Positions 23,966-61,788 of a stretch of 64,000 nt of DNA are shown one piece after another. The notes under the pieces were generated by a model. The model saw only the letters and a list, made by a program, of their open reading frames with translations. It had not been told where the DNA came from and ran no database searches. Position numbers and translations under genes: made by a program. This DNA is from Bacteriovoracaceae bacterium (GTDB lineage Bacteria; Bdellovibrionota; Bacteriovoracia; Bacteriovoracales; Bacteriovoracaceae), in assembly GCA_044356225.1 (NCBI GenBank), contig JBIKWR010000001.1, positions 17,244 to 81,243 of the forward strand, given 5' to 3'. Positions within the stretch are counted from its first letter, which is position 1; every line of letters starts with the position of its first letter.

Positions 23966-26146
23966 TTACAATTGTGCAGGATTATCAAAGGCCATTCCCA
24001 TAGGCATAGGAACCGGTCTTGGAGGCATTGGTCCCGGACCCGGTGCTGGAGCTGGCATTGGTCTTGGCGGCAACGGCATTGGTGCTGGGGCCGGAGCTGG
24101 ATCTGGCATCGGTCTTGGTGGCAACGGCATTGGTGCTGGAGCTGGACCCGGTGCTGGTGATGGCATCGGTCTTGGCGGCAACGGCATTGGTGCTGGAGCT
24201 GGACCAGGTGCTGGTGCTGGATCTGGCATCGGTCTTGGCGGCAACGGCATTGGTGCTGGAGCTGGACCAGGTGCTGGTGCTGGATCTGGCATCGGTCTTG
24301 GTGGCAACGGCATTGGTGCTGGAGCTGGACCAGGTGCTGGTGCTGGATCTGGCATCGGTCTTGGTGGCAACGGCATTGGCCCTGGTCCTGGCATCGGCCC
24401 TGGTCCTGGCATCGGCCCTGGTCCTGGTATCGGCCCTGGTCCTGGCATCGGCCCTGGTCCTGGCATCGGCCCTGGTCCTGGCATCGGCCCTGGTCCTGGC
24501 ATTGGCCCTGGTCCTGGCATCGGCCCTGGTCCTGGCATCGGTCCTGGTCCTGGCATCGGTCCTGGTCCTGGCATCGGTCCGGGTCCTGGCATCGGTCCGG
24601 GAAATGGCATCGGCATTGGAGCTGGCCCTGGTCCTGGATTTGGCAATGGCATTGGAGTTGGTCTCATCGGCATAGGAAACGGCATTGGATATGTAGGCGG
24701 CACCGGAATTGGGCGCATTGGCCATGGCATCGGCTTCCAAGGAACTGGAACTGGTTTGTAGTGAGGAACACAACCGCCATAGTTAGGAGAGTAGTGTGAT
24801 CCAGGTCCGCATAATTTATTTTTATGATATTGGCCATGGTACCAGTTATTGTTGTTCCAAACACACTGGCCTAAAACCCAAGACCAACTTTGGCCAACTC
24901 CACAATAACCATTTTGATGATTGGCAATACATCCACCATGGTAAGCACTGTAATGAGTGCCTGGCGAACAGTAATTATACCATTGAGTGGGCCGACAAGT
25001 GAGATCTAAACCACCCCACCAACTCCAACCAACTTTACAACCAGAGTAGCTTGGTAAACAGCTTCCAGAATAATGATCATAGTATGTACCTGAGTAACAT
25101 TTTTTAGCACCCCACCATACACATTTGTCTATGACCCATGAATACTTCGTTCCCACCGGGCAAAAATTGGCATTTGGTCGGCAACGGTTACTCCAAGGAT
25201 CAAAGGTCCAGTTAAAAGGACATCGCTGATAAGTGTTTTTAATACATTCATAAGTGAAATGATCGTAACTATATCCAACTGGACAATAATTATAAGGATG
25301 AGATGGATAATTAACACAGCGATTTAACTGGTTATCGTAAAACTGACCAGCAGGACAAAATTTTCCTGAGTTTGGTTTACAAAATCCATGGAGATCATCG
25401 TAATAATATCCAGGAGCACAAGCATAGTCGTTATTGTTTTCTTCTAATACAGTAACTTCAAATTGTTTAAAAGTTTGATTTCCCCATTCATCTGTCGCAC
25501 TCACGACAAACTGATTTGAACCAGTTTCGATAGGGTAACCAGAAATAGAGAATGAATTTTCATAAACATCAGTGCGAACTTCAAGCCCTAAGGGAGCATT
25601 TCCCGAAACTAACTCACCATTAAAAAAAGTGCTATTAGACGGTAATCCTACCTCGATGGTTTCATCATAATACTGTTGTAATCTTGCTACTTTTAACTCG
25701 CGAAAATCGTTGAATTGATAATGATCTATTTGCTCGCTATTTTCAGAATATAAACAGAATCGTTCGGCGGTTGATCGCTCGCCACTATTATCATAAACAG
25801 TTGCTCTTAAAACAAAACACCAAGAACCAACAAAGGCCGGAGTTCCAAACAAAGTCGCATAAGCGCTTGAACCGTTTGCTAGATCGAGACCCGCTGGTAG
25901 ATCATCTTGATGAATATCCCAATCCACTCTTGCCGAAGAAAGAGCTCCTCGAAGTGAAAATTCCAATTCAGAATATTCACCATACTTAACAACTAGGTCA
26001 TCTGCTTGACTAACAATTTGCAGTTGACGGTCTAAAGTGTCGTTGTCGTAATCTGAATCTCCCCATTGGGCGAAGGCCGGAGCAATAATCAGACTACAAC
26101 ACAGAAATGTTAGCATCCACCAGTAATTCCAAATGCGTTTTTTCAT
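23966..26146 (-). CDS. secreted modular protein: two Ig-like (He_PIG-type) domains, Cys-hairpin repeats, proline-rich repeat tail
   Basis: Signal peptide, then LPAGLDL..GTPAFVGSW and APLGLEV..ISGYPIETGSNQF segments. About ten C-P-x-G-x-x-Y-x(5-7)-C units follow, then (MPGPGP)n and (PAPAPMPLPPRPMPDPAPAPG)n. GAGG lies 4 nt upstream of the ATG. Confidence 0.8.
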   Translation of the reverse strand: MKKRIWNYWWMLTFLCCSLIIAPAFAQWGDSDYDNDTLDRQLQIVSQADDLVVKYGEYSELEFSLRGALSSARVDWDIHQDDLPAGLDLANGSSAYATLFGTPAFVGSWCFVLRATVYDNSGERSTAERFCLYSENSEQIDHYQFNDFRELKVARLQQYYDETIEVGLPSNSTFFNGELVSGNAPLGLEVRTDVYENSFSISGYPIETGSNQFVVSATDEWGNQTFKQFEVTVLEENNNDYACAPGYYYDDLHGFCKPNSGKFCPAGQFYDNQLNRCVNYPSHPYNYCPVGYSYDHFTYECIKNTYQRCPFNWTFDPWSNRCRPNANFCPVGTKYSWVIDKCVWWGAKKCYSGTYYDHYSGSCLPSYSGCKVGWSWWGGLDLTCRPTQWYNYCSPGTHYSAYHGGCIANHQNGYCGVGQSWSWVLGQCVWNNNNWYHGQYHKNKLCGPGSHYSPNYGGCVPHYKPVPVPWKPMPWPMRPIPVPPTYPMPFPMPMRPTPMPLPNPGPGPAPMPMPFPGPMPGPGPMPGPGPMPGPGPMPGPGPMPGPGPMPGPGPMPGPGPMPGPGPMPGPGPIPGPGPMPGPGPMPGPGPMPLPPRPMPDPAPAPGPAPAPMPLPPRPMPDPAPAPGPAPAPMPLPPRPMPDPAPAPGPAPAPMPLPPRPMPSPAPGPAPAPMPLPPRPMPDPAPAPAPMPLPPRPMPAPAPGPGPMPPRPVPMPMGMAFDNPAQL
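24040..24377 (-). repeat. imperfect tandem repeat, 51-63 bp unit, about 6 copies (coding)
   Basis: The GGCAACGGCATTGG anchor recurs at 24069, 24120, 24177, 24240, 24303 and 24366. It encodes the 17-21-aa PAPAPMPLPPRPMPDPAPAPG unit. Confidence 0.9.
24378..24611 (-). repeat. 18-bp tandem repeat GGCCCTGGTCCTGGCATC, about 12-13 copies (coding)
   Basis: Head-to-tail units start at 24378 with only synonymous-type variation (GGTCCT/GGCCCT, ATC/ATT). They encode (MPGPGP)n. Confidence 0.9.
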
Positions 26147-31048: not shown

Positions 31049-31136
31049 GTTATTTTCTCGTGATCCTTTTTTACCTCTTGTGGGTATAATGAATTAAATT
31101 GATCATATCAAAAACTTGAAGAAGGTGGGCCCATTT

Positions 31137-33131
31137 ATGCAAATAGAAACGGTAAAACGCAAGGGCAAAACCGTAGATGCAGTTATTGAAAGTAAAGATC
31201 AGCGCTGGCATTGTCGCAATCGAGTGACTTTAGTGTTTGGTTCCAACGACCCAGAGGAGTTAGAGACTTATATTTATAAAGATAAATCATTAGAGTTTAA
31301 AACCGTCCAATTTCATCAAGCAAAATCCAAGGCGGTGGAAGAAATTCTGGACAACTGCATCGATGAATTTTACCGCGGGCACGTTACCGAGATTCGAGCT
31401 GAATTGTCTGCCGATAAAAAAACAGTCACGATTACCGACAATGGCATTGGTATGCCATTGGATAAAATTGAGCAAGTTTACACAGAATTTAGAACCGGTT
31501 CAAAATTTAAAGATGAGGAAGTGGATGAAAAGGGCTACCTCCATCGAACCCTTGGCCAAAATGGTTTGGGGGCCTCGGCTACTTGTTTGACCAGTGATTT
31601 ATTTGAGGTAACGGTTAAACATTACAATTCCAAAAAAGAGCAAAATTTTAAATTTATCGATGGGGCCTTAAAAGTTGAAAAATCCAAAGTGAAGGGATTT
31701 AAAGGGCCATCAGGCGTTTCTGTCAGCGTTACTCTGAGTGAAGAAGTTTATAAAGATAATGTGATCGATCCCGTTTTACTTAAAAAACGAATTATTGATT
31801 TGGCCTACAATAATCCTGGGCTCATTTTTTATTTAGGAAAAGAAAAGTTTGTTTATAAAAAAGGCCTCTTTGAGTTGGCGCAAAGAATTAGTCCCAAGTT
31901 TTCTTCAGAGATTGGCGTTGATCACTACTCTTTTGAAATACAACTCAAAGGGACGGGAAAACGCAAAAAGGCCAAGGGAAAAATTGATCTTTCGGTTTCG
32001 GTTGTTTTAGATGCAAATTCTGATGATCGCGAACGATTTATTAGTTTTGTCAATTCCACTCCCACCTTTGATGGTGGATTTCATCAAGATCGCTTTAAAA
32101 GATTTTTTATTAATATGATCAAAGAAAAATTAGATCGAACCGCCAAAAAAGAGAAAGTTTTAGTCAATGATAATGACGTCTTGGCCGGTACGACCTTTGT
32201 TCTTGGCGTGACCATGCCTAATCCTCGATTTGAATCTCAAACCAAAAGAAAATTAGTGCGCGATTTAGATCTAGAAAAATCCATTGAAAAGTTCATGAAT
32301 AAACACATGCTCAATTGGATCAAAAATCATGCCGATTATTTGGAAGTGGTTTTAGAGAGAGCGAAAAATCGCGTAAAATTTCAGGCCCTTAAAGATGCTT
32401 CGAAGTTAGGAAAAAAACAAAAAAGACAAAGAGTTGAAAAATTGCTCGATGCCAATGAAAGAAAAGATCGTAGCCTTTGTTCTCTCTTTATTTGCGAAGG
32501 TGATTCAGCGATCGGTGGATTGCGATCTTCGCGAGATAAATTGTTACATGGTGGAATTGCCTTAAAGGGAAAACCCATGAATGTCCTTCAGGCGACCATT
32601 CCTGACGTCCTTAAAAATCAAGAATTTTTAGATATTATGGCCTCGATCAATTTAACTCTTGGTCAGCCGGTCGATTTTGAAAATTTAAGATACCAAAAGA
32701 TTGTATTTTTGGCGGATTCGGATGTTGACGGTGGCCATATTAACACCTTGTTAACTAATTTCTTTTTTAAGTTTTGGCCGGAACTTTTTGAACGAGGTTG
32801 TATTCAAATTGCCAAGGCACCATTGTTTGAAGTGGTGACCGAAAAAGGAGTGCAGTTTGCGGAAACACCTCATGAGCTGGAAAAAATAAAAAAATCTCAT
32901 AAGGTTAAAGAGGTGATGAGAAATAAAGGTTTGGGTGAAATGAGTCCAGAAGCATGGAAATATGTTATGCAAAGAACCAAACACACTATTATTGAAGTAA
33001 AAAATAAAAAAGATGCCGGCCATGTTTTGGAAATATGTTTTGGCAAAGAAACTCAACATCGAAAAGAGTTATTGATGGATGAAGAGATGACCAGTGGCAA
33101 GTCCAAGGCCAAACGACATACTCATAAATAA
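31137..33131 (+). CDS. type IIA DNA topoisomerase, ATPase/Toprim (B) subunit, divergent
   Basis: GHKL motifs EILDNCIDE, DNGIGMP and GQNGLGAS; transducer QTKRKL; Toprim EGDSAIGG and DSDVDGGHI. I prefer ATG at 31137 (MQIETVKRKGK) to TTG at 31116. Confidence 0.85.
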   Translation: MQIETVKRKGKTVDAVIESKDQRWHCRNRVTLVFGSNDPEELETYIYKDKSLEFKTVQFHQAKSKAVEEILDNCIDEFYRGHVTEIRAELSADKKTVTITDNGIGMPLDKIEQVYTEFRTGSKFKDEEVDEKGYLHRTLGQNGLGASATCLTSDLFEVTVKHYNSKKEQNFKFIDGALKVEKSKVKGFKGPSGVSVSVTLSEEVYKDNVIDPVLLKKRIIDLAYNNPGLIFYLGKEKFVYKKGLFELAQRISPKFSSEIGVDHYSFEIQLKGTGKRKKAKGKIDLSVSVVLDANSDDRERFISFVNSTPTFDGGFHQDRFKRFFINMIKEKLDRTAKKEKVLVNDNDVLAGTTFVLGVTMPNPRFESQTKRKLVRDLDLEKSIEKFMNKHMLNWIKNHADYLEVVLERAKNRVKFQALKDASKLGKKQKRQRVEKLLDANERKDRSLCSLFICEGDSAIGGLRSSRDKLLHGGIALKGKPMNVLQATIPDVLKNQEFLDIMASINLTLGQPVDFENLRYQKIVFLADSDVDGGHINTLLTNFFFKFWPELFERGCIQIAKAPLFEVVTEKGVQFAETPHELEKIKKSHKVKEVMRNKGLGEMSPEAWKYVMQRTKHTIIEVKNKKDAGHVLEICFGKETQHRKELLMDEEMTSGKSKAKRHTHK

Positions 33132-33160
33132 GAAACGGTAATAAAAGGAAGATCAATCGC

Positions 33161-34585
33161 ATGCAAGATACTTACCTCCATAATTTAGCTTCTATACCGC
33201 TAACTGAAATCGTCAAAGAAGAGTATCGCAACTATCAAATATATACGTTGATGGATCGAGCGATTCCCTATTTAGAAGATGGGCTAAAACCTGTTCAGCG
33301 TCGAATCCTTTACATGCTGTGGAAAAATCAAAGTAAAGGATTAATGAAGGTATCTTCTGCCACGGGATTGATCTTAACTCTTCATCCCCATGGTCCTGCT
33401 TCGATTGAAGCTTCAATTGTCAATTTGGCGCAAGATTATACCTTCTCGAATAATTATCCATTAATCGATAAAAAAGGATACTTTGGCGAGCGAATGGAGA
33501 ATATGGCGGCCGCCTCCAGATATATAGAGTGTAAATTAGGAAAGGTCGCCGATCTCATTTTATTTGATGATATGAACCAAGTGGAGATGGTGCCAAATTA
33601 CGACGAACGTTCGGTGGAACCAAGTCATTTGTTACCCAAATTGCCCATTATGCTGTTAAATGGCGCTGAAGGAATTGGCACAGGTTTTTCTTCCATGATT
33701 CCTTCGTTTAATCACACTGACATTATTAAATCCATGATTTCGGTGGTTGAAACTGGTTCACCAAAAAAAATTAAACCATGGGTGCGAAATTTTAAAAATA
33801 CGATTGAAGAACGTGACGGAAAGTTTCATTACCCCGCCAAGTTTGAAGAAAAAAGCGGAAAAGTTTTTATTACTGAATTACCCAAAGGTTATGATGGTCA
33901 AAAAACCAATAAGTATTTAATTAAGTGGCAAGAGAAAGATTATTTACGCGATTTTATTGATTCTACCGTCAATAATGAAGTAGATATTGAACTGATTTTT
34001 AAACGTGGTCAAACTCCCGCTTTGGCCGAAATCCAAGAAAAAATGGGAATTTCTACTTCGGTGTCTCCTAACTATACGTTGATCAATGAAAGAGGAATTA
34101 AAATATTTGATAAACCAGAAGAGATCATCACCATTTTTACCAATCGCCGATTGGCGGTGGTTAAAAAACGTTATCAGTTGTTGGCCGAAGAAACTCAGAA
34201 TAGACTTAATCAAAATAATGAAATCATCCGATTTATTAAAGATAAACATTATGCTCAAGCAGAGAAAAAAGCGAATCGTAAGGCCTTTGTAGATTACTTA
34301 TCGTCAGAAAAATTTCATTTTGCTGAGTATTTAGCAGATATGGCGATTTATCGTATGACAAAAGAAGAGGTCGAAAAGCGATTAGCACTGATTAAAGAAG
34401 ATAAAACAAAATTGGCAGACTATGTAAAAGTGGCGGGAAGTTCAAAACTGGTGGCCGAAAAATTGATTGAAGAGTTAAAAGAGCTCGATCTCAATTTAAC
34501 GCAAGTGATGAAGCAAAAAGAAGATGAAAAAATGCGTTCAAGTATCAAACAGAAAACAAAAACCACCGCCAGAAAAAATCAGTAG
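33161..34585 (+). CDS. type IIA DNA topoisomerase, breakage-reunion (A) subunit lacking the GyrA/ParC C-terminal domain
   Basis: DGLKPVQRRILY, LHPHGPASIE, and the active-site Tyr context AASRYIECKL. At only 474 aa it ends after a coiled-coil/C-gate-like region with a K-rich tail. AAGGAAG lies upstream of the ATG. Confidence 0.85.
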   Translation: MQDTYLHNLASIPLTEIVKEEYRNYQIYTLMDRAIPYLEDGLKPVQRRILYMLWKNQSKGLMKVSSATGLILTLHPHGPASIEASIVNLAQDYTFSNNYPLIDKKGYFGERMENMAAASRYIECKLGKVADLILFDDMNQVEMVPNYDERSVEPSHLLPKLPIMLLNGAEGIGTGFSSMIPSFNHTDIIKSMISVVETGSPKKIKPWVRNFKNTIEERDGKFHYPAKFEEKSGKVFITELPKGYDGQKTNKYLIKWQEKDYLRDFIDSTVNNEVDIELIFKRGQTPALAEIQEKMGISTSVSPNYTLINERGIKIFDKPEEIITIFTNRRLAVVKKRYQLLAEETQNRLNQNNEIIRFIKDKHYAQAEKKANRKAFVDYLSSEKFHFAEYLADMAIYRMTKEEVEKRLALIKEDKTKLADYVKVAGSSKLVAEKLIEELKELDLNLTQVMKQKEDEKMRSSIKQKTKTTARKNQ

Positions 34586-34588
34586 CGG

Positions 34589-34611
34589 CCTAAAACATAA
34601 AAAGTTTTAGG
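34589..34611 (+). terminator. hairpin after the topoisomerase A-subunit gene
   Basis: CCTAAAAC-ATAAAAA-GTTTTAGG forms an 8-bp stem 4 nt after the TAG stop. A short T-run (GTTTTC) follows a few nt later. Confidence 0.45.
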
Positions 34612-34796
34612 AATAAGTTTTCGCTGATTATATCCAAGGCCTTGAATTTGTTGATATTTTATAGGCCATAGCCTTGTTTTTATGGCAAATCCCAAATTGT
34701 CTTTTCAATAAGTTAGGCACTTTTTAGGTGTTTAAAAGATTTTGAGTTACTGTTGTTAAGAGTCAAAAAATCCTGCAAGAAAAAATGGAGATCATT

Positions 34797-35000
34797 ATGT
34801 TAAAGCGAATTTTGGTAGAAAAAAACAAAAGTAAAAATCTTGGTGTCAGTTTAAAAGGCCAGAAAGGTTTTACTGTTTTAGAAATGATAGCGGTTGTCGC
34901 AATGATTGGTATTTTATCAGCGTCCACTGTTCCGTTCTATAAACAAGTTTATAATGATGCTTCACATGTTCATAACTTAAAAAAAGGTCCAATATCTTAA
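34797..35000 (+). CDS. prepilin-type N-terminal cleavage/methylation protein, helix-only mini-pilin
   Basis: KG|FTVLEMIAVVAMIGILSA matches the class III signal (G-F-T-x-x-E plus hydrophobic helix). The mature product is only about 43 aa. I prefer ATG at 34797 because GGAG (34787-34790) lies 6 nt upstream; the track start is 34785. Confidence 0.6.
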   Translation: MLKRILVEKNKSKNLGVSLKGQKGFTVLEMIAVVAMIGILSASTVPFYKQVYNDASHVHNLKKGPIS

Positions 35001-35044: not shown

Positions 35045-35896
35045 TTAAAGCTGATGTTCAAAAATCATTTCACCATTTTGAAAATGCCGACAACGTCCAT
35101 GAATAGTTAACTCGATCAAGCCGCGAATAAGTTCTCCAGGATTTTGTGGGCCATTATTTTGACTCATTGAGTGTGACATAGAAAATCCAGAAATGGATTG
35201 ATTAAATTCATGTTGATAATTTTCGATAATGTTTTCTTTATCAATCGCAAAAGGAATTCGAGAGATATATTCTGGTTGTATTGATGGATGCATCACCGAG
35301 TCTACTGAAAAATCATATTCATGAAAAAGTCCCAAGAGATGTCCTAATTCATGGATGGCCACAGAGGGTAAATCAAAGGTTGAAGCGGATTGAACTAAGC
35401 TCCAATCATGATCACGATAGTTAAAAACAATATCACCATGGATAAGACTTACTTCATTGCCATTTTTAAAACCAAAGTATTGAGTTAAGGCCAAAACATA
35501 ACTGCCAATCCCCTCAAACCATTGATAACTTTTATACATTCCAATTTCATTATCACGATAAAGATCGAGGTTATTTAAATCTTTATTAGGAGTTTCATCC
35601 AAAGGAATTTGAAAAAAATTAAGTTCTTGATCGATCGCCAAAGACCATTCTGATGCTGCATCTTCAATTAAAGTTATTTCTTGTGGATCAAAATCACTCG
35701 AAATTTTCAAGGCCAAGGGTAAATCTATGGCATTCCAGTAAACATGGTACTGAGTTGGCTCAGGAATCGTTTGTTTATTATTACCTAACAAATTGGGAGC
35801 TGGAAGGTCTTCTCCGTTACAACCGATCCATAAAAAAAGAAAAAACAGACTAGTGAGTTGAAGTAATCTTAGAAAGTGTTGGGCAAAGAATGGAAT
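35045..35896 (-). CDS. metzincin (matrixin/M10-like) zinc metalloprotease lipoprotein; proposed ATT start
   Basis: HELGHLLGLFHE (HExxHxxGxxH) plus the Met-turn DSVMHPS. The track ORF (35045..35791, TTG) lacks a signal peptide. The same frame is open upstream to 35977 and encodes PFFAQHFLRLLQLTSLFFLFLWIGC (lipobox). ATT at 35896-35894 lies 5 nt downstream of GAGG. Confidence 0.65.
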   Translation of the reverse strand: MPFFAQHFLRLLQLTSLFFLFLWIGCNGEDLPAPNLLGNNKQTIPEPTQYHVYWNAIDLPLALKISSDFDPQEITLIEDAASEWSLAIDQELNFFQIPLDETPNKDLNNLDLYRDNEIGMYKSYQWFEGIGSYVLALTQYFGFKNGNEVSLIHGDIVFNYRDHDWSLVQSASTFDLPSVAIHELGHLLGLFHEYDFSVDSVMHPSIQPEYISRIPFAIDKENIIENYQHEFNQSISGFSMSHSMSQNNGPQNPGELIRGLIELTIHGRCRHFQNGEMIFEHQL

Positions 35897-37675: not shown

Positions 37676-38677
37676 TTATTGTTCAAATTGGTAATAAACT
37701 TCTTTTAAAAACTCATCCGCAAATAGATTATTTTCTAAGTGAGATTTATAAAGTTTAAGTGAGTAACTAGGAGTTACACCCATCCATTCTTTAATCAAAG
37801 AATGTTTTTTATCTTGGCAGAGCCATTTAAAAATACAAGCTTGTCTTAAAGACTTAGGAGTTAAGGTAATAGTGAGTTTATTTCTCAATTCTTCAAAAAT
37901 GATTTCTAGACCTCGAGGAGATAACCCACCAGAAAGTATTCTGTAAGGATTGGCGTTAAAAAGAACTTCATCAAAACTAATGTTTGATTCTCTTTTAACT
38001 TCATCTAATAAACTTTTATAAGAAGCAAAAACCGGATTAAAGATTTCTGGAAGTGGTACCGAGTAAGGATCTCGTTTGGTAGGAGTTACCATTACTCGAG
38101 GTTCATTACCTTCATAGATATGATCCATTTTAAGTTTTGCTAAATCGGAAACCTTCAATCCACCACCATAGACCAAAACCACGATGACTTGGTTTCGTCG
38201 AGCGATCAAACTGCCTAGTTTAGTTTTTGTTTTACTATCTTCACATAAGTGCTTCCACAGAGTTTTTACATCTTGTAAAGGAGTTGGTCTGGGAATATCT
38301 AAAAACTTAGGAGAAGTTGGTAATTTACGAACGGGATTTTCGCTATAAAGACCTTTTTGCACCATAAAATCAAAGAAAATACGCAAGGCTTGAACTCGGC
38401 GGCGTCTGGAGTTATCGGAGGTGTATTTTTGATTGAGGAAAGCTCCGTATTCCATGACTTTGGTATTGTTAAAATTGATTAGGGTGAGGTTACCCTGTTT
38501 ATCGATTAAGTATTTGTTAAAACACTCTAAGTCAGTTCGATAGTTTTTGAGAGTATTGGCACTTTTCCCTTGAACTCTTAATAAATCAAAAAAATCTTTT
38601 TGAAGTTCCCCAAGCATGATGGGTGAAGATGAAATGATGGTGTTGTCTGAACCTACGTTTGGTGTGCTTAATTCCAT
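37676..38677 (-). CDS. tyrosine-recombinase-like protein (Xer/integrase fold) with degenerate catalytic residues
   Basis: N-terminal SAM-like core-binding motif (KSANTLKNYRTDLECFNKYL). The C-terminal domain is alignable to XerD boxes: GGGLKVSDL (Arg-I replaced by K), TPKSLRQAC (HxxR replaced by KxxR, next His replaced by Q), and WMGV..LKLYKSH (His/Trp replaced by V, Tyr retained). Confidence 0.55.
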   Translation of the reverse strand: MELSTPNVGSDNTIISSSPIMLGELQKDFFDLLRVQGKSANTLKNYRTDLECFNKYLIDKQGNLTLINFNNTKVMEYGAFLNQKYTSDNSRRRRVQALRIFFDFMVQKGLYSENPVRKLPTSPKFLDIPRPTPLQDVKTLWKHLCEDSKTKTKLGSLIARRNQVIVVLVYGGGLKVSDLAKLKMDHIYEGNEPRVMVTPTKRDPYSVPLPEIFNPVFASYKSLLDEVKRESNISFDEVLFNANPYRILSGGLSPRGLEIIFEELRNKLTITLTPKSLRQACIFKWLCQDKKHSLIKEWMGVTPSYSLKLYKSHLENNLFADEFLKEVYYQFEQ

Positions 38678-55762: not shown

Positions 55763-56590
55763 TTATTTTAGCTCATTCACAGCGTTGATCAAACTTTTTA
55801 ATGGCGAAGTCCAATCTTTACCTGCGGGAATGAACACCGGATTCCAATGAATAACGTAATCTTGTGGGCGTCGGTGTTTTAAGAGGTGTTGATCCAAAGG
55901 CTTAAATTGGCCTTCGATGATAAAAAGCACTTTAGATTTTTGGTCTTGTAATAAATTTTGCAACTCCTTGGCCGCTTTGGTCTTCATTTCATCATGATGA
56001 TGGCCACTTCTAAGTGCCAAGGTTTTTAAACCGGCATTTCGAAAATAACTGAGAACAGTATCGTGAGAGGAGACCACCGCGGTGAAAGGGAAATTTTTTT
56101 GGGTGTAAAAGGCCTTTTCAGCTAAACTAAAATCCGTTTCAAAAGGGCAGGGAGTTTTTAAGTCGCGATTAAAATACGTGGTAAAATGCTGCTGGATTTG
56201 CTGGTCGATTAAACATGCCGCTTCGGCAGACAACCAAAAGTGCGGATTGAGGTTTTTAGGTAAGGTTAAAGTCAAAACTTTTTTAGGGTAAAGTTTAATT
56301 AACTGTTTTCCCCATTCTAAAGCTTCGATCGGGCCAAGAATAATTAGATCGGCCTTCATTAAAGCTTTAATCATATCAGGTGTGAGTTCAAAATCGTGCA
56401 AGTCTTGATCGGTTTGCACTAAAGACTCCACCTCAAACTTGACAATTTTTTTAACTAAAATCTGATGCACTCGATGGGCCAAGATAGGGGAGCTAGTTTT
56501 AATCGTCAGTTGACTAAAATCCACTTCTGCTCGAGCACTTTGCATGAGGGAAAAAAACCACAGAACAAAATGGAGCAAATAAAATTTCAT
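55763..56590 (-). CDS. periplasmic metal-binding protein (TroA/ZnuA cluster A-I like)
   Basis: Signal peptide, about 275 aa, short HHHDE patch. The call is supported by operon context with the ABC-3 permease and ATPase. Confidence 0.7.
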   Translation of the reverse strand: MKFYLLHFVLWFFSLMQSARAEVDFSQLTIKTSSPILAHRVHQILVKKIVKFEVESLVQTDQDLHDFELTPDMIKALMKADLIILGPIEALEWGKQLIKLYPKKVLTLTLPKNLNPHFWLSAEAACLIDQQIQQHFTTYFNRDLKTPCPFETDFSLAEKAFYTQKNFPFTAVVSSHDTVLSYFRNAGLKTLALRSGHHHDEMKTKAAKELQNLLQDQKSKVLFIIEGQFKPLDQHLLKHRRPQDYVIHWNPVFIPAGKDWTSPLKSLINAVNELK

Positions 56591-56628
56591 CGCTGCTTCG
56601 TATCATAGGAGGTGAATAGTGGCAATTG

Positions 56629-59600
56629 CTACTGACAGTAAAGGTGGTGATTCCAGCGATACCCATTTTGAAATTGGTTAAAACCGCGTGGGTTGTCGGG
56701 GTCAGTGTCATCATCAATATCTTCAGGACTATCGAGAAGGCCATAGACCCGGGTGAGCGATCCATCGGATGATCCAAATGAACCACTGTTCGGCTGGCCT
56801 GGATAATGGCCAAAAGCACCCCCAGCAATCACCGTGCCCGAACTACAGAAGGCCTCGCCTATATTGCGAATTTTATTTCTCACTGTATCGTTGTAAAGCG
56901 GCTCACCGGTCATGGAGTTAAAATCAGTTTCGATTAAACCACCACCTGGGAGATCCTCATCAATGCCTTCACCCGAGATAAATTTATTAAAATAAACATG
57001 CAGATCAAGCCCCGATGGCATCATGCAAGTGATTTCGCCAGTGCTGATATCGGCGACACCGTGGTTAGAGCAGCACTTGGTTTGATCGGTGACGATCGAG
57101 CCAATAGGCGCGCAGCAACTGAATTCGCTGGCGGAGAATATTTTATCCAGCGCCACTCCATCCACATAGCTCACTTGATTGCGCGAACCAACCGTTTCGG
57201 CGACGGTTTTAGTGTTATCATAAAACGCTGCGGGAGTGAGAGGAGCATTGGCATCTGCCGAACCCGTGGTGTAGTTAAAAGAAGGAGCACCAGCAATAAA
57301 AGTGGTCCAGTCAGCATCGTTGAGGAAAATTCCACCCACCATATTGCCTTGTTCATCGTTACAAGAAATTGGTTCGTAGAGAATTTGCGGGACACCGATG
57401 AGTTCAAGGCGGCCAAGTTTGGAGAGGTAATAAAATTCATTGCCCGGAGTGAGACCGACTTCTGGATCAGCGGCGACTGAACCACTATGACCAATCACGT
57501 TGTTGGGAATAAAATTTATTCTCACTGCCGCCTGATCAAGACTTCCTAGTCCTGGATTATGTTTGACATAGAGAATACCAGTCGCGGTGTCGTAACATTC
57601 AGAATTAACCGCCGCACCCACCATATTAGCGGTACAAGGCATCGCTACATTGGCCACCGCCGTGATCGTAGTGAAACTGCCATTGGTGAGGTAATTGACA
57701 ATATCGATATCAAAACTGGCCTCCAGCGGATCGATGTAGCCGGGTAATTTAAAAGCGATGTAGTCGTCATTAACCGTTCCAAAAGTAAAGTCTGATTGTA
57801 AAAGTGCACCCACCGCCGAGACAAAACGAGTTAACGGAGCAAAGGGCGTGTACTCGGTGAGGTTATCAAAAGGAATTTCAGTATAGGAATCAATCGTGGC
57901 CGTAAAGGTTGCTGGTCGAACCGGATAAATAATGCTGTTAGTGGTGCCTGGGGTGAACGCAAATTGTGGGCAACCACCAAACTCCACAAAAAAGCACATA
58001 TTACTAAAATCGATATCGTAATTGGATTGTAAAGTTCCAGCGGGTTTTTCCTTATAAATAGTATGGCGATAATTTACACACTGAAATTCTGAAACATCTA
58101 AATTGAGGCGAGTGTTATTGGTCCAATCATGGGTCCCATCGGCAAATTGTCTGACCCATCCTCCACCGCAACAGGTTTTTTCACCAGCGCGTTTAAAAGT
58201 CAGCCATTGAAAAGGTAGCGGCACTTCGCCGGCGTCAAATTCCGGAGCTTGAGGACGAACAGCAACGGTGGCGATCGCGACATTTAAATCTTCCACTACC
58301 GCATAACGAGAGTAGCGACGAGCAGTCATCGGGTTGTCCGCCAAAAAAGGTAAGTCGGTAACTCCCACACGTGCCAGTTGGCCAGAAGGATCGCCTTCTG
58401 GATCATTGGCGGTGATCATCGTAAATTTTTGGCCTTGAGCGCGGCAACAGCGATTTTCACTGATATCAAAGTCGGCAAAGAGCACGGAATTAAGAGCTGG
58501 TACCGGATTTTGTTGGCCACATATCATCGACTCTTGCCAATAATTTTTTTCAGCAGTGGAACCACCAAAAAAAGATGTGGCAAATTGCGCAGCGGTGGTG
58601 GCGTGAAGAGCATTGGGAGAACAATCCAAATCGGAATGACAAACTGCTCCTGGTCGCCTGAAACATGCGTCTTGGACTATTGAAGGAGTGACGATCGAGC
58701 TGAATGTACCAATGGCATTTTTTTCGATGTTAACAAAGGCCGACGTTCCACCTGCATTTTTAGCTCCCGCTCCACAAGTATTTTGCAATCTTAATTGTTG
58801 TTGATCGGCGGCACTGGTGAAGGTTGGGGTGGTGATAAAAGTATAATCGCCAGAAGTGGGATCGAGCATGGGACAAGACTGCACGCGGTTAAGGCCAGTA
58901 GTGGCGCTATTACAACTGCCCACCTGACTAATGTAATCGGTGCGGTTTTGATTGTCGCGATTAGCATGCTGTGTTTCCATGTGCGGATTAGCATTGGTGT
59001 CGATAAATTTTCCCGGTTGGCAAATTCCATAATCGTCATCGGTGGCAAAACTACTATGCTGATTATCGAGATTGGCCTCTAAAGTTGAGATAACGGCATT
59101 AGGTAAACTGACGCTGCCATTAAGATATTTTTCCGGTCGGCCTAAAACATTTGCCTCTTTACCAAAAAGTATATTGTCGGCTAATAAAGGAGTGCGAATG
59201 ATTTCGTCGTTAAAAGATTGAGTAATTTTTTTACACCAAAAATTAGGAGCACAAGTAAAATTTTTGCGTATGCTAAGAGGAAGGGCAGAGTAGTTTTGTT
59301 TACATACAGAACCCGATCCGCGGTAGACACATCGTTTTTTGGTAGTGGCCTTCAGTCCACCGACAATGATCTTACTGAGAAATTTTGAATCAGCGGTATT
59401 CACATTTTCATCTTCATCGGTAAATGTCGGCCATAGTGTTTTGACACTATTAATGTTGGCGCACATGTACTCCCAACCCAGCTTTGTCACACAATCGGTA
59501 TCGTCATCACACAAGTGATACTGCTGGCAACTAGCACCTTGATTTTGACTAGGGTTGTTCATCGTCAAGTCAGGATCAAAGTCATACTTGGCGACCGTAT

Positions 59601-61707
59601 CATTGGAGTTCGTCAGAGAAATGGTGACATTGGTAGAAGTTTGATCCGCCAAATCGCCCATGACTCCATTGATTGCTAAATACAGTTTGTCACTTTTGGC
59701 CGTTACTCGTCTGCCGGAACCGATGGCAAACCAGCTGACACCATCAAAAGATCCAATCAGAGCGCCTTTATTAAAACCAAACCAATCGCGCTGATACCCA
59801 TTGATCCAAAGGGCGGCTTGAGTTTGCAGACGATTGAGTCTTTGAGTTTGCCCATCGGCATTGGCAGTATGAGAAAAAGGTAACATGGTCGGTGGCACGA
59901 AGCAGGCACGACCAAAAAGGGTATCTTCATAATTTCCTAAAGTGAGGTTAGTGGAAAAAGCATCTCTGGATGTCGTGTGCCCGACTGCTTGCAATCCTCG
60001 GCCCGCCGAAGAATTGGGATGGGCGCTGAAGGCCTGAAACCAGGAGTCTTTACTACAGAGAGGACAGGGAGAATAGAATCCGGAGTTAACAAAGATGGTG
60101 TAGTTTTCATTGTCGTTAACGGGTATCATCTTTGCCGGAAAGGCCTGATCGAGTGTCACGGAAAATTGGCCGGTGATGGAGTTCATATTAAATTGGCCAT
60201 TGTCGGGATCGGTTTTATTGAGGTTATCGAGGTATTGAAACTCTGTGCCTTCAGGTATTACACCCGTGCCGGCAATGGAGGTGATGTTATCGACTGCCAG
60301 ACCATTGGTGGCGCGAAAAAAACGATGGGGCACCGATCGGGCAGAAACATCCACAAAAGTGGTGGAGAAGGGAGGATCGGTATCACTATTCAAATTATCA
60401 CAAGCCACGGCAGTGATTTTTCCCGCCGGATTTTTACTCGCATGAAAAATAAAAGTATCTTGGCAAGCGAGTGTCGGATCACCACTGGGAGGATTGCTAG
60501 GATCACAACCACACATTTTATTAACAATGGTTTGGACTTGCGCCTCAGTGACGCCAGTACCCGCCACATCACAAGAGATACTTTGAATGCCGGCACCCAA
60601 CAGCCAACGTTCCGCTTGCGTGTCGTAGGTCGGGAGGTTGGTGATGGTATTGGGACACAAATTTTCGGTTTCATTTTGGCAGGTGTAGGAGTTATCACAG
60701 TACTCACTAAAACCTTCTTCACAAAGTTGATCTGTCAAACAGTAGTAATAATTAATTTTGGTTTGCAATAATTCTTTAGCGTCTTGGGTAGGATCATTGG
60801 GATTTGACGGAGGAGGGTTGAGACCACCAGTGCCACAGACATTATAAATATGAGGATAATTCACATAGGCCAAGGGATTGATGGCAATGTCCGCCTGAGA
60901 TTGAGCAAAGTCATTCGGATACAAGCTCGAGGCATTGGATTTGAGCACTCCATCGTTGACACAATTATTGTTTAAACAACAATCAAAACCCAACGTTTGG
61001 CAGGAGGAATTGGTGCATAAACCTTGACCGCCATTATTTTGTGAGGAAGCGGTGTCAATGTTAAGTCCAAGCCCACTGAGGTTAAACAAGTTATTGGAGA
61101 CCAATGTATTATCACTAATGCCAGAACTCACTTGATAAATTTTTACCGAGGTGGATTTGATAATGGTGTTACAAGTGGTGCAAACCTCATCGAGAGCAAA
61201 AGCACTGCCGGCCATCGCTACTCCACTAACCGTACCAGTGCAGACGGAAGCATTACTGGCATTTTGATCTAGATCGATGCGAAAATATCGTTCAATGGAT
61301 TGAGTGCTAAAGTTATTAAAAAAGGCGGGAGTGGCGCGCACTCTCATTTGGGTTTTTGCCCCAGTGGCAGCATACGTGGCCAAAAGACAAAAAGTTTTTT
61401 GGAAATTGTTATTTAAATTTAGAAAGGTCTCGACCGCCTTACCTCGTAAAAAAACCACGCTGTTTAAATCTTCATTGACGGTGAGAGCATTAAAAATTTG
61501 CTGACTATTATGAAACCAAAACAGCTGACTGGTGTTCGTCCCCGCGCCATCATTTAAACCACTGGTATTGTCCTGGGTAATGCGGCGATTACTTTCAGTT
61601 TGAATTGGCAGGCAACTAGTCAAGGACAACAAGGCCCACAAGCTAAAACTGAAAAGTAAAAACTGATACTTGATCAAATGTGTTGCCTCGTAAGTTTGAG
61701 TATGCAT
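56629..61707 (-). CDS. giant Cys-rich lipoprotein, unknown function (1692 aa)
   Basis: Lipobox LLSLTSC. Composition is N/T/G/S/D-rich and looks beta-rich. By hand count there are about 57 Cys, including five CC doublets. I recognise no catalytic motif. Confidence 0.8.
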   Translation of the reverse strand: MHTQTYEATHLIKYQFLLFSFSLWALLSLTSCLPIQTESNRRITQDNTSGLNDGAGTNTSQLFWFHNSQQIFNALTVNEDLNSVVFLRGKAVETFLNLNNNFQKTFCLLATYAATGAKTQMRVRATPAFFNNFSTQSIERYFRIDLDQNASNASVCTGTVSGVAMAGSAFALDEVCTTCNTIIKSTSVKIYQVSSGISDNTLVSNNLFNLSGLGLNIDTASSQNNGGQGLCTNSSCQTLGFDCCLNNNCVNDGVLKSNASSLYPNDFAQSQADIAINPLAYVNYPHIYNVCGTGGLNPPPSNPNDPTQDAKELLQTKINYYYCLTDQLCEEGFSEYCDNSYTCQNETENLCPNTITNLPTYDTQAERWLLGAGIQSISCDVAGTGVTEAQVQTIVNKMCGCDPSNPPSGDPTLACQDTFIFHASKNPAGKITAVACDNLNSDTDPPFSTTFVDVSARSVPHRFFRATNGLAVDNITSIAGTGVIPEGTEFQYLDNLNKTDPDNGQFNMNSITGQFSVTLDQAFPAKMIPVNDNENYTIFVNSGFYSPCPLCSKDSWFQAFSAHPNSSAGRGLQAVGHTTSRDAFSTNLTLGNYEDTLFGRACFVPPTMLPFSHTANADGQTQRLNRLQTQAALWINGYQRDWFGFNKGALIGSFDGVSWFAIGSGRRVTAKSDKLYLAINGVMGDLADQTSTNVTISLTNSNDTVAKYDFDPDLTMNNPSQNQGASCQQYHLCDDDTDCVTKLGWEYMCANINSVKTLWPTFTDEDENVNTADSKFLSKIIVGGLKATTKKRCVYRGSGSVCKQNYSALPLSIRKNFTCAPNFWCKKITQSFNDEIIRTPLLADNILFGKEANVLGRPEKYLNGSVSLPNAVISTLEANLDNQHSSFATDDDYGICQPGKFIDTNANPHMETQHANRDNQNRTDYISQVGSCNSATTGLNRVQSCPMLDPTSGDYTFITTPTFTSAADQQQLRLQNTCGAGAKNAGGTSAFVNIEKNAIGTFSSIVTPSIVQDACFRRPGAVCHSDLDCSPNALHATTAAQFATSFFGGSTAEKNYWQESMICGQQNPVPALNSVLFADFDISENRCCRAQGQKFTMITANDPEGDPSGQLARVGVTDLPFLADNPMTARRYSRYAVVEDLNVAIATVAVRPQAPEFDAGEVPLPFQWLTFKRAGEKTCCGGGWVRQFADGTHDWTNNTRLNLDVSEFQCVNYRHTIYKEKPAGTLQSNYDIDFSNMCFFVEFGGCPQFAFTPGTTNSIIYPVRPATFTATIDSYTEIPFDNLTEYTPFAPLTRFVSAVGALLQSDFTFGTVNDDYIAFKLPGYIDPLEASFDIDIVNYLTNGSFTTITAVANVAMPCTANMVGAAVNSECYDTATGILYVKHNPGLGSLDQAAVRINFIPNNVIGHSGSVAADPEVGLTPGNEFYYLSKLGRLELIGVPQILYEPISCNDEQGNMVGGIFLNDADWTTFIAGAPSFNYTTGSADANAPLTPAAFYDNTKTVAETVGSRNQVSYVDGVALDKIFSASEFSCCAPIGSIVTDQTKCCSNHGVADISTGEITCMMPSGLDLHVYFNKFISGEGIDEDLPGGGLIETDFNSMTGEPLYNDTVRNKIRNIGEAFCSSGTVIAGGAFGHYPGQPNSGSFGSSDGSLTRVYGLLDSPEDIDDDTDPDNPRGFNQFQNGYRWNHHLYCQ

Positions 61708-61788
61708 TCTCTTCTCGACGGCGCGTGAGAAGTTGGGAATTAAAATTGGAGATGAATGAAAAAGCGGAAATATTTTCCGCTTAAAAGC

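What the first reader, a model, noticed from the sequence alone, without database searches (positions are those of the whole stretch)
31137..34585. Compact type IIA topoisomerase pair: A subunit lacks the GyrA/ParC C-terminal DNA-wrapping domain, and B-subunit motifs diverge from GyrB/ParE
The A subunit is 474 aa. It has the winged-helix region with active-site Tyr (AASRYIECKL), then tower and C-gate-like regions, and ends in a K-rich tail. The ~300-aa beta-pinwheel CTD that defines gyrase and Topo IV is absent. In the 664-671-aa B subunit the Toprim context is EGDSAIGG...LLHGGIALKGKPMNV, where E. coli GyrB has EGDSAGGS...QAILPLKGKILNV. The subunit sizes (about 670 plus about 470 aa) resemble T4-type phage topoisomerase II (gp39+gp60 / gp52) rather than cellular bacterial enzymes. 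No other phage genes flank the pair.
Basis: partly seen in the sequence, partly recalled or inferred. Interest (0 to 1): 0.6.

Follow-up and report, generated by a model that had tools for sequence, protein, structure and literature searches.

The report
Third kind of bacterial topoisomerase II
This gene pair encodes a complete, tail-less type IIA DNA topoisomerase from a previously undescribed bacterial lineage, shared with Leptospira and distinct from gyrase, topoisomerase IV and T4-phage enzymes, and it probably untangles daughter chromosomes in bacteria that otherwise have only gyrase.

Summary
An operon encodes a 664-aa B subunit (31137-33131) and a 474-aa A subunit (33161-34585). All catalytic motifs are intact. 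There is no beta-pinwheel CTD here or as an orphan anywhere in the genome.

The organism is a Bacteriovoracaceae MAG. It also has one canonical gyrB-gyrA pair, but no ParC/ParE and no Topo VI. The pair is a vertically inherited core gene:
- It is present in 30/30 high-quality family genomes.
- Its housekeeping synteny (argS side) is conserved.
- It is more conserved than ArgS.

No curated NCBI family accepts either subunit.

A concatenated B+A tree (LG+C20, bootstraps) shows three groups:
- canonical gyrase/Topo IV, including plasmid-borne pairs (100/100);
- phage plus eukaryote-type Topo II (98/91);
- a third clade joining this pair with a similar compact pair found throughout Leptospiraceae (99/94).

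AU tests reject grouping with the ParC sets tested (p=0.023 and 4e-44) and with T4-like gp52 (p=4.5e-11).

Across the phylum the second type II enzyme is mutually exclusive: the compact pair in Bacteriovoracaceae, Topo VI in most other families, and a ParC-like protein in one.

The most likely role is ATP-dependent decatenase/relaxase. The T4-type reading is only partly right. I found no paper describing this clade. The scan's earlier "compact pair" notes concerned ordinary short ParC in other genomes; that explanation was tested here and failed.

The parts
31085..31090 (+). Possible -10 box (TATAAT) upstream of the B gene
   Evidence: Read directly from the sequence. The consensus scan found no matching -35, so it did not list this site. 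This is inference only.
31122..31128 (+). Shine-Dalgarno AAGGTGG, 8 nt before the ATG at 31137
   Evidence: Sequence read. It favours the 664-aa start over the TTG at 31116.
31137..33131 (+). B subunit (664 aa): GHKL ATPase, transducer, Toprim and C-terminal tail domain
   Evidence: Pfam finds HATPase_c, DNA_gyraseB, Toprim and GyrB_C. The motifs are intact: EILDNCIDE, GQNGLG, QTK, EGDSA, KGK and DSDVDG. phrog_543 scores 460 bits. GyrB and ParE NCBIfam models reach at most 294 bits against cutoffs of 723 or more.
33145..33151 (+). Shine-Dalgarno AAGGAAG of the A gene, inside the 29-nt B-A spacer (operon junction)
   Evidence: Sequence read.
33161..34585 (+). A subunit (474 aa): WHD with the catalytic Tyr, tower and coiled-coil C-gate; no beta-pinwheel CTD
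   Evidence: PF00521 matches at 292 bits over its full model. The AF2 model has pLDDT 85 and pTM 0.82 and shows WHD, tower and coiled coil. Foldseek gives TM 0.76-0.82 to GyrA cores, T4/T6 gp52 and eukaryotic Topo II.
33518..33523 (+). Codons for the catalytic Arg120-Tyr121
   Evidence: They align with E. coli GyrA R121-Y122 and are invariant in alignment A1.
34478..34582 (+). Lys/Arg-rich C-terminal tail (residues 440-474, net charge +5)
   Evidence: A basic tail of 25-50 aa with net charge +3 to +16 is present in all 18 Bacteriovoracaceae proteins aligned (the window protein and 17 orthologs). It is absent from the Leptospiraceae proteins.
34589..34611 (+). Terminator-like hairpin followed by a T-rich run; the likely end of the operon
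   Evidence: Consensus scan.

Best explanation
The two genes form an operon for a heterotetrameric (B2A2), ATP-dependent, strand-passing type IIA topoisomerase with no DNA-wrapping C-terminal domain. The enzyme belongs to a distinct, deep clade of cellular type IIA topoisomerases. That clade is shared by Bacteriovoracaceae and Leptospiraceae and lies outside the gyrase/Topo IV clade and outside the sampled phage and eukaryote-type clade. In this organism, which has a genuine gyrase but neither Topo IV nor Topo VI, the enzyme most likely acts as the decatenase and supercoil relaxase during replication and segregation. That is the job done by Topo IV in most bacteria and, judging by distribution, by Topo VI in most other Bdellovibrionota. 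The conserved Lys/Arg-rich tail of the A subunit may give non-specific DNA contacts in place of a CTD. Shown here: gene integrity, motifs, architecture, vertical inheritance, phylogenetic position and complementary distribution. Inferred: the enzymatic activities, the cellular role and the function of the tail.
For: Architecture and motifs are complete. There is no CTD anywhere outside the canonical GyrA. The genome has only two A and two B homologs: a canonical gyrB-gyrA pair on C128, whose GyrA carries a QRRGGVG GyrA-box, and this pair. No Topo VI-A was found. The pair is present in 30/30 family genomes of at least 90% completeness. It sits in conserved synteny next to the 214-aa gene, GNAT and argS across 10 genera, with 63-70% identity against 46-51% for ArgS. 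Across 151 genomes of the phylum the second type II enzyme is mutually exclusive: the compact pair in family f1 (Topo VI 0/30), Topo VI-A in nearly all GyrA-only families (106 genomes), and a ParC-like protein in f3. Allen et al. 2024 (PMC11302465) report independently that Bdellovibrio has gyrase plus Topo VI and no Topo IV. Leptospiraceae likewise have GyrA plus a compact pair and no Topo VI. In the concatenated B+A tree the canonical clade gets 100/100, the compact clade (Bacteriovoracaceae plus Leptospiraceae) 99/94, and the phage/eukaryote-type clade 98/91. Among 1.84 billion representatives, nothing lies between 64% identity (own clade) and 37% (Leptospira). CTD-less gyrase and T4/T6 Topo II are known ATP-dependent relaxases (PMC8216471, PMC11461880).
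Against: One family genome, G021 (98% complete), has neither the pair nor Topo VI, so the enzyme may be dispensable or replaceable by gyrase. Families f5, f7 and f16 also manage with gyrase alone. The complementary distribution reflects few independent evolutionary events. Single-subunit trees join the two compact clades only weakly, at SH-aLRT 67 for A and 87 for B. Both clades sit on long stems, so some long-branch effect cannot be excluded. The deep-branching TopoNM of M. smegmatis introduces positive supercoils (PMC8084294), which shows that atypical enzymes can have unexpected activities.
Confidence: 0.75

Rival explanations
1. It is an ordinary Topo IV (ParC/ParE) that lost its CTD, as in Chlamydia or the short spirochaete and Nanopelagicaceae forms, and then evolved fast, so that its deep position is a long-branch artefact.
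For: CTD loss in ParC is documented: zero blades in Chlamydia (PMC8216471). Earlier scan notes found ordinary short or CTD-less ParC in other genomes. The clade sits on a long stem of about 1.0-1.1. Databases label it gyrase/Topo IV subunit A.
Against: The recognised short ParC family is a different clade, inside the canonical group. A spirochaete ParC passes NF007209 at 858 bits against a cutoff of 644, while the window A scores 171. Forcing the window clade together with the short ParC clade costs 50.8 lnL (p-AU 0.023). Forcing it together with all ParC-type rows gives p=4e-44. The canonical clade excludes it at 100/100 under LG+C20. The B subunit has the GxNGxG ATP-lid form of phage and eukaryote enzymes, not GGLHGVG. 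The A tower region aligns with yeast Topo II and gp52 but not with GyrA/ParC in phmmer.
Confidence: 0.1
2. It is a recently acquired phage or mobile-element topoisomerase (T4-type gp39/gp52), carried as cargo and not part of the host's core machinery.
For: PHROG phage Topo II profiles give the best scores, 460 and 367 bits. The sizes and B->A order resemble jumbo phage Munch at 657+472 aa. Megaplasmids often carry their own type IIA pairs.
Against: There are no phage genes nearby. Chromosomal synteny is conserved across 10 genera. The pair is in 30/30 family genomes at 63-70% identity. Identity to any phage protein is only 25-32%. No IMG/VR contig carries the clade's motifs. A clade with T4-like gp52 is rejected (p-AU 4.5e-11). 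The plasmid-borne pairs fall in the canonical clade, not with the window pair.
Confidence: 0.03
3. It has a specialised activity other than general decatenation, for example TopoNM-like positive supercoiling, or a role tied to a particular process such as multi-chromosome filament resolution.
For: The only characterised deep-branching bacterial type IIA enzyme, TopoNM, introduces positive supercoils and is poorly inhibited by quinolones (PMC8084294). The window A has Ala at both quinolone-anchoring positions, equivalent to S83 and D87. The Bacteriovoracaceae clade has a specific basic tail. G021 and several families live with gyrase alone.
Against: The same clade occurs in non-predatory Leptospiraceae, so the role is not specific to predation. 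The mutually exclusive distribution with Topo VI and ParC fits a generic second type II topoisomerase role. The relation to TopoNM could not be tested.
Confidence: 0.12

Closest known systems
Leptospiraceae compact type IIA pair (462-aa A plus 711-aa B, annotated 'DNA gyrase subunit A/B'; uncharacterised)
   Same: It is the sister clade in the concatenated tree (99/94) and the nearest relative among 1.84 billion representatives (37% identity). It has no CTD. It is chromosomal and conserved across the genus and family. The host genomes have GyrA plus the compact pair only, with no Topo VI. It is below every NCBIfam cutoff.
   Different: Identity is only 28-37%. The gene order is reversed (A->B, overlapping). 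The B subunit is longer at 711 aa. There is no basic C-terminal tail. Position 87 of the QRDR keeps Asp.
Phage Topo II of T4/T6 (gp39[+gp60]/gp52) and of jumbo and other phages (Munch, Atu_ph04, RsoM2USA)
   Same: Split B and A subunits of about 600-660 and 440-470 aa with no CTD. The ATP lid is GxNGxG. The alignments are full-length (PDB 8ylu/8yo3). PHROG 543 and 551 match. T4/T6 enzymes relax DNA with ATP (PMC11461880).
   Different: Identity is 25-32%. The phage enzymes form a separate clade (98/91), and sisterhood with T4-like gp52 is rejected. The window pair is encoded by a cellular chromosome as a core gene.
Bacterial Topo IV, including CTD-less and short forms (Chlamydia; NF007208/NF007209 spirochaete and Bacteroidota ParC)
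   Same: The probable cellular role is the same: decatenation and relaxation alongside gyrase. It is also a two-subunit enzyme. Some ParC proteins also lack the CTD (PMC8216471).
   Different: It is a different clade. Scores are far below the curated cutoffs. The ATP-lid motif and the tower region differ.
TopoNM of Mycobacterium smegmatis (Jain & Nagaraja 2005, as summarised in PMC2647321 and PMC8084294)
   Same: It is a bacterial two-subunit type IIA enzyme reported to branch between Bacteria and T4 phages. A viral origin is suspected, and its quinolone sensitivity is reduced. It is the one published precedent for a non-gyrase, non-Topo IV bacterial lineage.
   Different: It is reported as a stand-alone enzyme of one species, additional to the core set, and it has positive-supercoiling activity. 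A possibly related M. intracellulare plasmid pair falls in the canonical clade on a long branch.

Membership tests
Type IIA topoisomerase superfamily | GHKL ATPase N-box and ATP lid, QTK loop, Toprim E...DxD, and WHD catalytic Arg-Tyr | tested here: met
   EILDNCIDE, GQNGLG, ESQTKRKL, EGDSA, DSDVDG and R120-Y121 are all present. Pfam finds the expected domains.
DNA gyrase (GyrA/GyrB) | Beta-pinwheel CTD carrying a GyrA-box | tested here: not met
   There is no PF03989 hit in A or anywhere else except the canonical GyrA on C128. The A protein ends 35 aa after the coiled coil.
DNA gyrase (GyrA/GyrB) | Score above the curated equivalog cutoffs (TIGR01063, NF004043, TIGR01059) | tested here: not met
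   A scores 142-147 bits against cutoffs of 877-902. B scores 278 bits against 882.
Topoisomerase IV (ParC/ParE) | Score above the curated cutoffs (TIGR01061/01062, NF007208, NF007209, NF009397; TIGR01055/01058) | tested here: not met
   A scores 115-171 bits against cutoffs of 598-813. B scores 212-226 bits against 723-900. As a positive control, a spirochaete ParC scores 858 against 644.
Topoisomerase IV (ParC/ParE) | Phylogenetic placement within the GyrA/ParC and GyrB/ParE clade | tested here: not met
   The canonical clade excludes the pair at 100/100. AU tests give p=0.023 and 4e-44.
T4-type phage Topo II (gp39/gp60/gp52) | Split subunits without a CTD; match to phage Topo II profiles | tested here: met
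   phrog_543 matches at E=2e-137 and phrog_551 at E=4e-109. The alignment to 8ylu_A/8yo3_A is full-length.
T4-type phage Topo II (gp39/gp60/gp52) | Clade membership with Straboviridae gp52/gp39 | tested here: not met
   p-AU 4.5e-11 against a clade with T4-like gp52. The T4-like chimera row lies in the other starred clade.
T4-type phage Topo II (gp39/gp60/gp52) | Encoded in a phage genome | tested here: not met
   Housekeeping flanks, conserved chromosomal synteny, and no viral contig match.
Eukaryotic/NCLDV Topo II | Single-chain B-A fusion | tested here: not met
   Two ORFs are separated by 29 nt, and the second has its own SD.
TopoNM (M. smegmatis) | Sequence relationship to TopoN/TopoM | not testable with these tools
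Only literature descriptions were available.

The most novel reading that the evidence does not exclude
Bacteriovoracaceae and Leptospiraceae share a third cellular lineage of type IIA topoisomerases, neither gyrase/Topo IV nor eukaryotic Topo II. It branches at the junction between the bacterial enzymes and the viral/eukaryotic ones. It was probably captured from unsampled viruses and domesticated as the host's decatenase. This would be a third solution, besides Topo IV and Topo VI, to the same cellular problem, and a new anchor point for rooting the Topo IIA tree and for the 'viral origin' debate.
Probability: 0.5. Interest if true: 0.75.

Novelty: new variant of a known kind. Interest (0 to 1): 0.62.

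Why it matters
Published phylogenomics treats bacterial Topo IIA as one monophyletic group (gyrase plus Topo IV), with M. smegmatis TopoNM as a lone oddity (PMC2647321, PMC9752973). This finding adds a well-supported extra clade. It is a core, vertically inherited enzyme in two unrelated bacterial families, one of which contains the Leptospira pathogens. Databases label it 'DNA gyrase subunit A/B' everywhere.

Within one phylum, Topo VI, a ParC-like protein and the compact enzyme replace one another. This is a clear case of non-orthologous displacement of the second type II topoisomerase.

The finding also makes several things directly testable with culturable Bacteriovorax/Halobacteriovorax and Leptospira biflexa:
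- how a CTD-less bacterial enzyme recognises its substrates;
- whether the basic tail substitutes for a CTD;
- where the bacterial and viral branches of the Topo IIA tree meet.

The quinolone-anchoring residues differ from those of GyrA and ParC. Drug-target assumptions based on the 'ParC' label may therefore not hold for this enzyme.

Tried and rejected
- **Detached CTD:** I looked for a CTD detached by a frameshift or encoded elsewhere and found none.
- **Prophage or mobile island:** rejected on the flanks, the synteny and the IMG/VR scan.
- **Short-form or CTD-less ParC (NF007209/NF007208):** rejected on scores and trees.
- **Single-subunit quick trees:** these left a trichotomy, and the side of the central branch was unresolved (p-AU 0.55). 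Only the concatenated tree resolved it.
- **First AU test of Bacteriovoracaceae plus Leptospiraceae (p=0.025):** this was confounded because I left out P0133, the sister of the Leptospira clade. With P0133 included, the group is the ML topology.
- **P0133:** my last homolog search on it found only unnamed metagenomic relatives and no link to TopoNM.
- **Deferribacter plasmid 'B' ORF:** it is too divergent (branch length 8) and was uninformative.
- **Literature:** searches for Bacteriovorax, Halobacteriovorax, Bdellovibrio or Leptospira together with Topo IIA or Topo IV found no description of this enzyme.
Full report
**What is there**

The window holds two co-directional ORFs 29 nt apart:
- A B subunit at 31137-33131 (664 aa; a TTG at 31116 would give 671 aa).
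- An A subunit at 33161-34585 (474 aa).

Each has its own Shine-Dalgarno sequence. The AAGGTGG at 31122-31128 favours the ATG start at 31137. A terminator-like hairpin follows the A stop codon.

Pfam finds HATPase_c, DNA_gyraseB, Toprim and GyrB_C in B. In A it finds only PF00521, over the full model.

All catalytic elements are intact:
- N-box EILDNCIDE
- ATP lid GQNGLG
- QTK loop
- EGDSA
- KGK
- DSDVDG
- Arg120-Tyr121

An AlphaFold2 model of A (pLDDT 85, pTM 0.82) shows WHD, tower, a long coiled coil and a helical basic tail, with no beta-pinwheel.

**Genomic context**

The window lies on contig C12 of a 3.14-Mb MAG that is 94% complete. Names attached to orthologs identify it as Bacteriovoracaceae, in Bdellovibrionota.

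The genome contains exactly two A-type and two B-type homologs:
- an adjacent canonical gyrB-gyrA pair on C128, in 826- and 833-aa frames;
- this pair.

All six GyrA-CTD blades in the genome are inside the canonical GyrA. That GyrA carries a GyrA-box variant, QRRGGVG. No ParC/ParE and no Topo VI-A were found.

The flanking genes are housekeeping: PEPCK, ArgS, GNAT, a pilin-like ORF, a matrixin-like peptidase, transaldolase and RNase III.

**Inheritance**

The compact A subunit is present at 63-70% identity in almost all genomes of the family and in 30 of 30 genomes that are at least 90% complete.

In ten genera the B->A pair sits next to the same 214-aa gene, GNAT and argS. It is more conserved (63-70%) than ArgS (46-51%).

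There are three apparent exceptions:
- G021 (98% complete) lacks both subunits and also lacks Topo VI.
- G022 has the pair, but a contig end cuts it.
- G002 is only 75% complete.

**What it is not**

*Not an accepted NCBI family.* No curated NCBI family accepts either subunit. A scores at most 176 bits against cutoffs of 598 or more. B scores at most 294 bits against cutoffs of 723 or more.

*Not the short ParC form.* The recognised short ParC family is different. A spirochaete ParC passes NF007209 at 858 bits against a cutoff of 644. It also scores 492 bits against NF007208 (below that model's 598 cutoff), a 479-position model that I take, from memory, to be the Chlamydia-type CTD-less ParC. 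These proteins fall in the canonical clade. Earlier notes of this scan on other genomes described such ordinary short or CTD-less ParC proteins. That explanation fails here.

*Not like GyrA/ParC beyond the WHD.* phmmer against PDB sequences aligns A with yeast Topo II over residues 6-360 and with T4/T6 gp52 over residues 14-423. With GyrA and ParC it aligns only over the WHD, residues 10-198.

*Not close to any phage protein.* Phage proteins are 25-32% identical. No IMG/VR contig carries the clade's motifs.

**Nearest relatives**

A search of 1.84 billion representative proteins found one full-length representative of the window's own clade at 64% identity. The next hit drops to 37%. After that come gp52-like proteins of about 440-460 aa and fused Topo II proteins of about 1,050-1,500 aa.

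The 37% hit is a chromosomal Leptospira protein. The whole genus Leptospira, Leptospiraceae and some other Spirochaetota MAGs carry this 460-480-aa A subunit.

In Leptospira the A gene is followed by an overlapping 711-aa B gene, so the order is A->B, and the pair lies beside gltX. Five Leptospiraceae genomes have GyrA plus the compact A and nothing else, and none of the four searched for it has Topo VI-A.

Other spirochaetes have GyrA alone or GyrA plus a 630-770-aa ParC.

**Phylogeny**

*A-subunit trees.* I built a FastTree of 168 rows and IQ-TREE LG+C20 trees of 86 and 97 rows. Canonical GyrA/ParC proteins, including short ParCs and megaplasmid-borne copies, form a strongly supported clade on a long stem. 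The phage and eukaryote-type proteins form another. The Bacteriovoracaceae clade and the Leptospiraceae clade branch between them.

*AU tests.*

| Constraint | Result |
|---|---|
| Window clade with T4-like gp52 | rejected, p=4.5e-11 |
| Window clade with all ParC-type proteins | rejected, p=4e-44 |
| Window clade with the short ParC clade | rejected, p=0.023 |
| Window clade on the phage/eukaryote side of the central branch | not rejected, p=0.55 |

*B-subunit trees.* These agree with the A trees.

*Concatenated B+A tree.* The alignment had 1,081 columns and 42 taxa. The model was LG+C20 PMSF with ultrafast bootstrap and SH-aLRT support. It resolves three groups:
- canonical enzymes (100/100, stem 0.79);
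- the compact clade, Bacteriovoracaceae plus Leptospiraceae (99/94);
- phage plus eukaryote-type enzymes (98/91).

Relative to the deepest, best-supported split, the compact clade lies with the viral and eukaryotic enzymes, but as its own lineage. The ATP-lid form GxNGxG, shared with phage and eukaryotic enzymes, fits this. GyrB and ParE have GGLHGVG instead.

*Caveats.* Both compact clades have long stems. The single-gene supports for their union are weak, at 67 and 87. The T4-like row in the concatenated tree is a chimera of two Tevenvirinae phages.

**Function**

Across the same sample of 151 Bdellovibrionota genomes, the second type II topoisomerase is mutually exclusive:

| Group | Second type IIA A subunit | Topo VI-A |
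|---|---|---|
| Bacteriovoracaceae (f1) | compact pair, 30/30 | 0/30 |
| Family f3 | ~770-aa ParC-like, 3/3 | 0/3 |
| Nearly all other families | none (GyrA only) | present (106 genomes in all) |
| Small-genome families f5, f7, f16 | none | none |

Allen et al. 2024 report independently that Bdellovibrio has gyrase plus Topo VI and no Topo IV (PMC11302465).

Gyrase without its CTD is an ATP-dependent relaxase, and so are the CTD-less T4/T6 enzymes (PMC8216471, PMC11461880). On that basis, the most likely activity here is ATP-dependent relaxation and decatenation without negative supercoiling. The most likely role is that of a Topo IV or Topo VI equivalent.

The A subunit's Lys/Arg-rich tail is conserved in composition in all Bacteriovoracaceae orthologs and absent in Leptospiraceae. 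A DNA-binding role for it is an inference.

The positions equivalent to GyrA S83 and D87 are Ala and Ala. This suggests weak quinolone binding, as reported for TopoNM. That too is an inference.

**Novelty**

A CTD-less ParC is known in Chlamydia (PMC8216471). A deep-branching bacterial Topo IIA, TopoNM, is also known (PMC2647321, PMC8084294).

I found no paper describing this clade in Bacteriovoracaceae or Leptospiraceae. Recent phylogenomics treats bacterial Topo IIA as monophyletic (PMC9752973). The library searched is incomplete, and I could not compare the pair with TopoNM sequences.

I therefore rate this as a new variant of a known kind: a new subfamily of type IIA topoisomerase.

Noticed in passing
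window 34785-35000 (+): A 71-aa ORF with a prokaryotic N-terminal methylation motif (PF07963, 23 bits), i.e. a very short pilin or pseudopilin-like protein, lies directly downstream of the operon.
   Followed up: partly
window 37676-38677 (-): A 333-aa tyrosine-recombinase-like protein. It has the SAM-like N-domain, but its catalytic domain is below the Pfam cutoff. It is probably a divergent Xer-type recombinase. It is not syntenic with the topoisomerase pair in the relatives examined.
   Followed up: no
window 35045-35791 (-): A 248-aa matrixin-like zinc metalloprotease (PF00413) with an HELGHxxGxxH motif. It is conserved next to the pair in only one relative (L017).
   Followed up: no
window 24001-26000 and 56001-62000: Local GC rises to 0.45-0.49 against a background of 0.34-0.40.
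   Followed up: no
G021 (same family, 98% complete): This is the only high-quality Bacteriovoracaceae genome without the compact pair. It also lacks Topo VI-A, so it is apparently gyrase-only.
   Followed up: partly
Bdellovibrionota families f5, f7, f16: These small-genome families (1.6-2.2 Mb) have GyrA only: no second type IIA A subunit and no Topo VI-A.
   Followed up: no
L116 (Lactococcus phage PMBT69) and L123 (C. perfringens plasmid pCP_P201): Their B+A pairs are sisters (100/100) and fall inside the canonical bacterial clade. This is a phage/plasmid lineage of gyrase-like enzymes distinct from T4-type Topo II.
   Followed up: partly
L119-L122, L126 (megaplasmids of Acetobacter, Deferribacter, M. 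intracellulare, A. caldus, Variovorax): Large plasmids carry their own type IIA A subunit, with an annotated B-subunit gene next to or near it (a divergent 654-aa ORF in Deferribacter). In the trees, the subunits fall in the canonical clade, except that Deferribacter ORF, which was too divergent to place. The M. intracellulare plasmid pair (677+709 aa) sits on a very long branch and might be TopoNM-like.
   Followed up: partly
G000:C128 canonical GyrA: The QRDR position equivalent to E. coli D87 is Gln, and the GyrA-box reads QRRGGVG rather than QRRGGKG.
   Followed up: no
P0133 group (metagenomic, 543-677 aa): A small unnamed group of five A-subunit proteins is sister to the Leptospiraceae compact clade. 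It has about 100-200 extra residues, and its host is unknown.
   Followed up: partly
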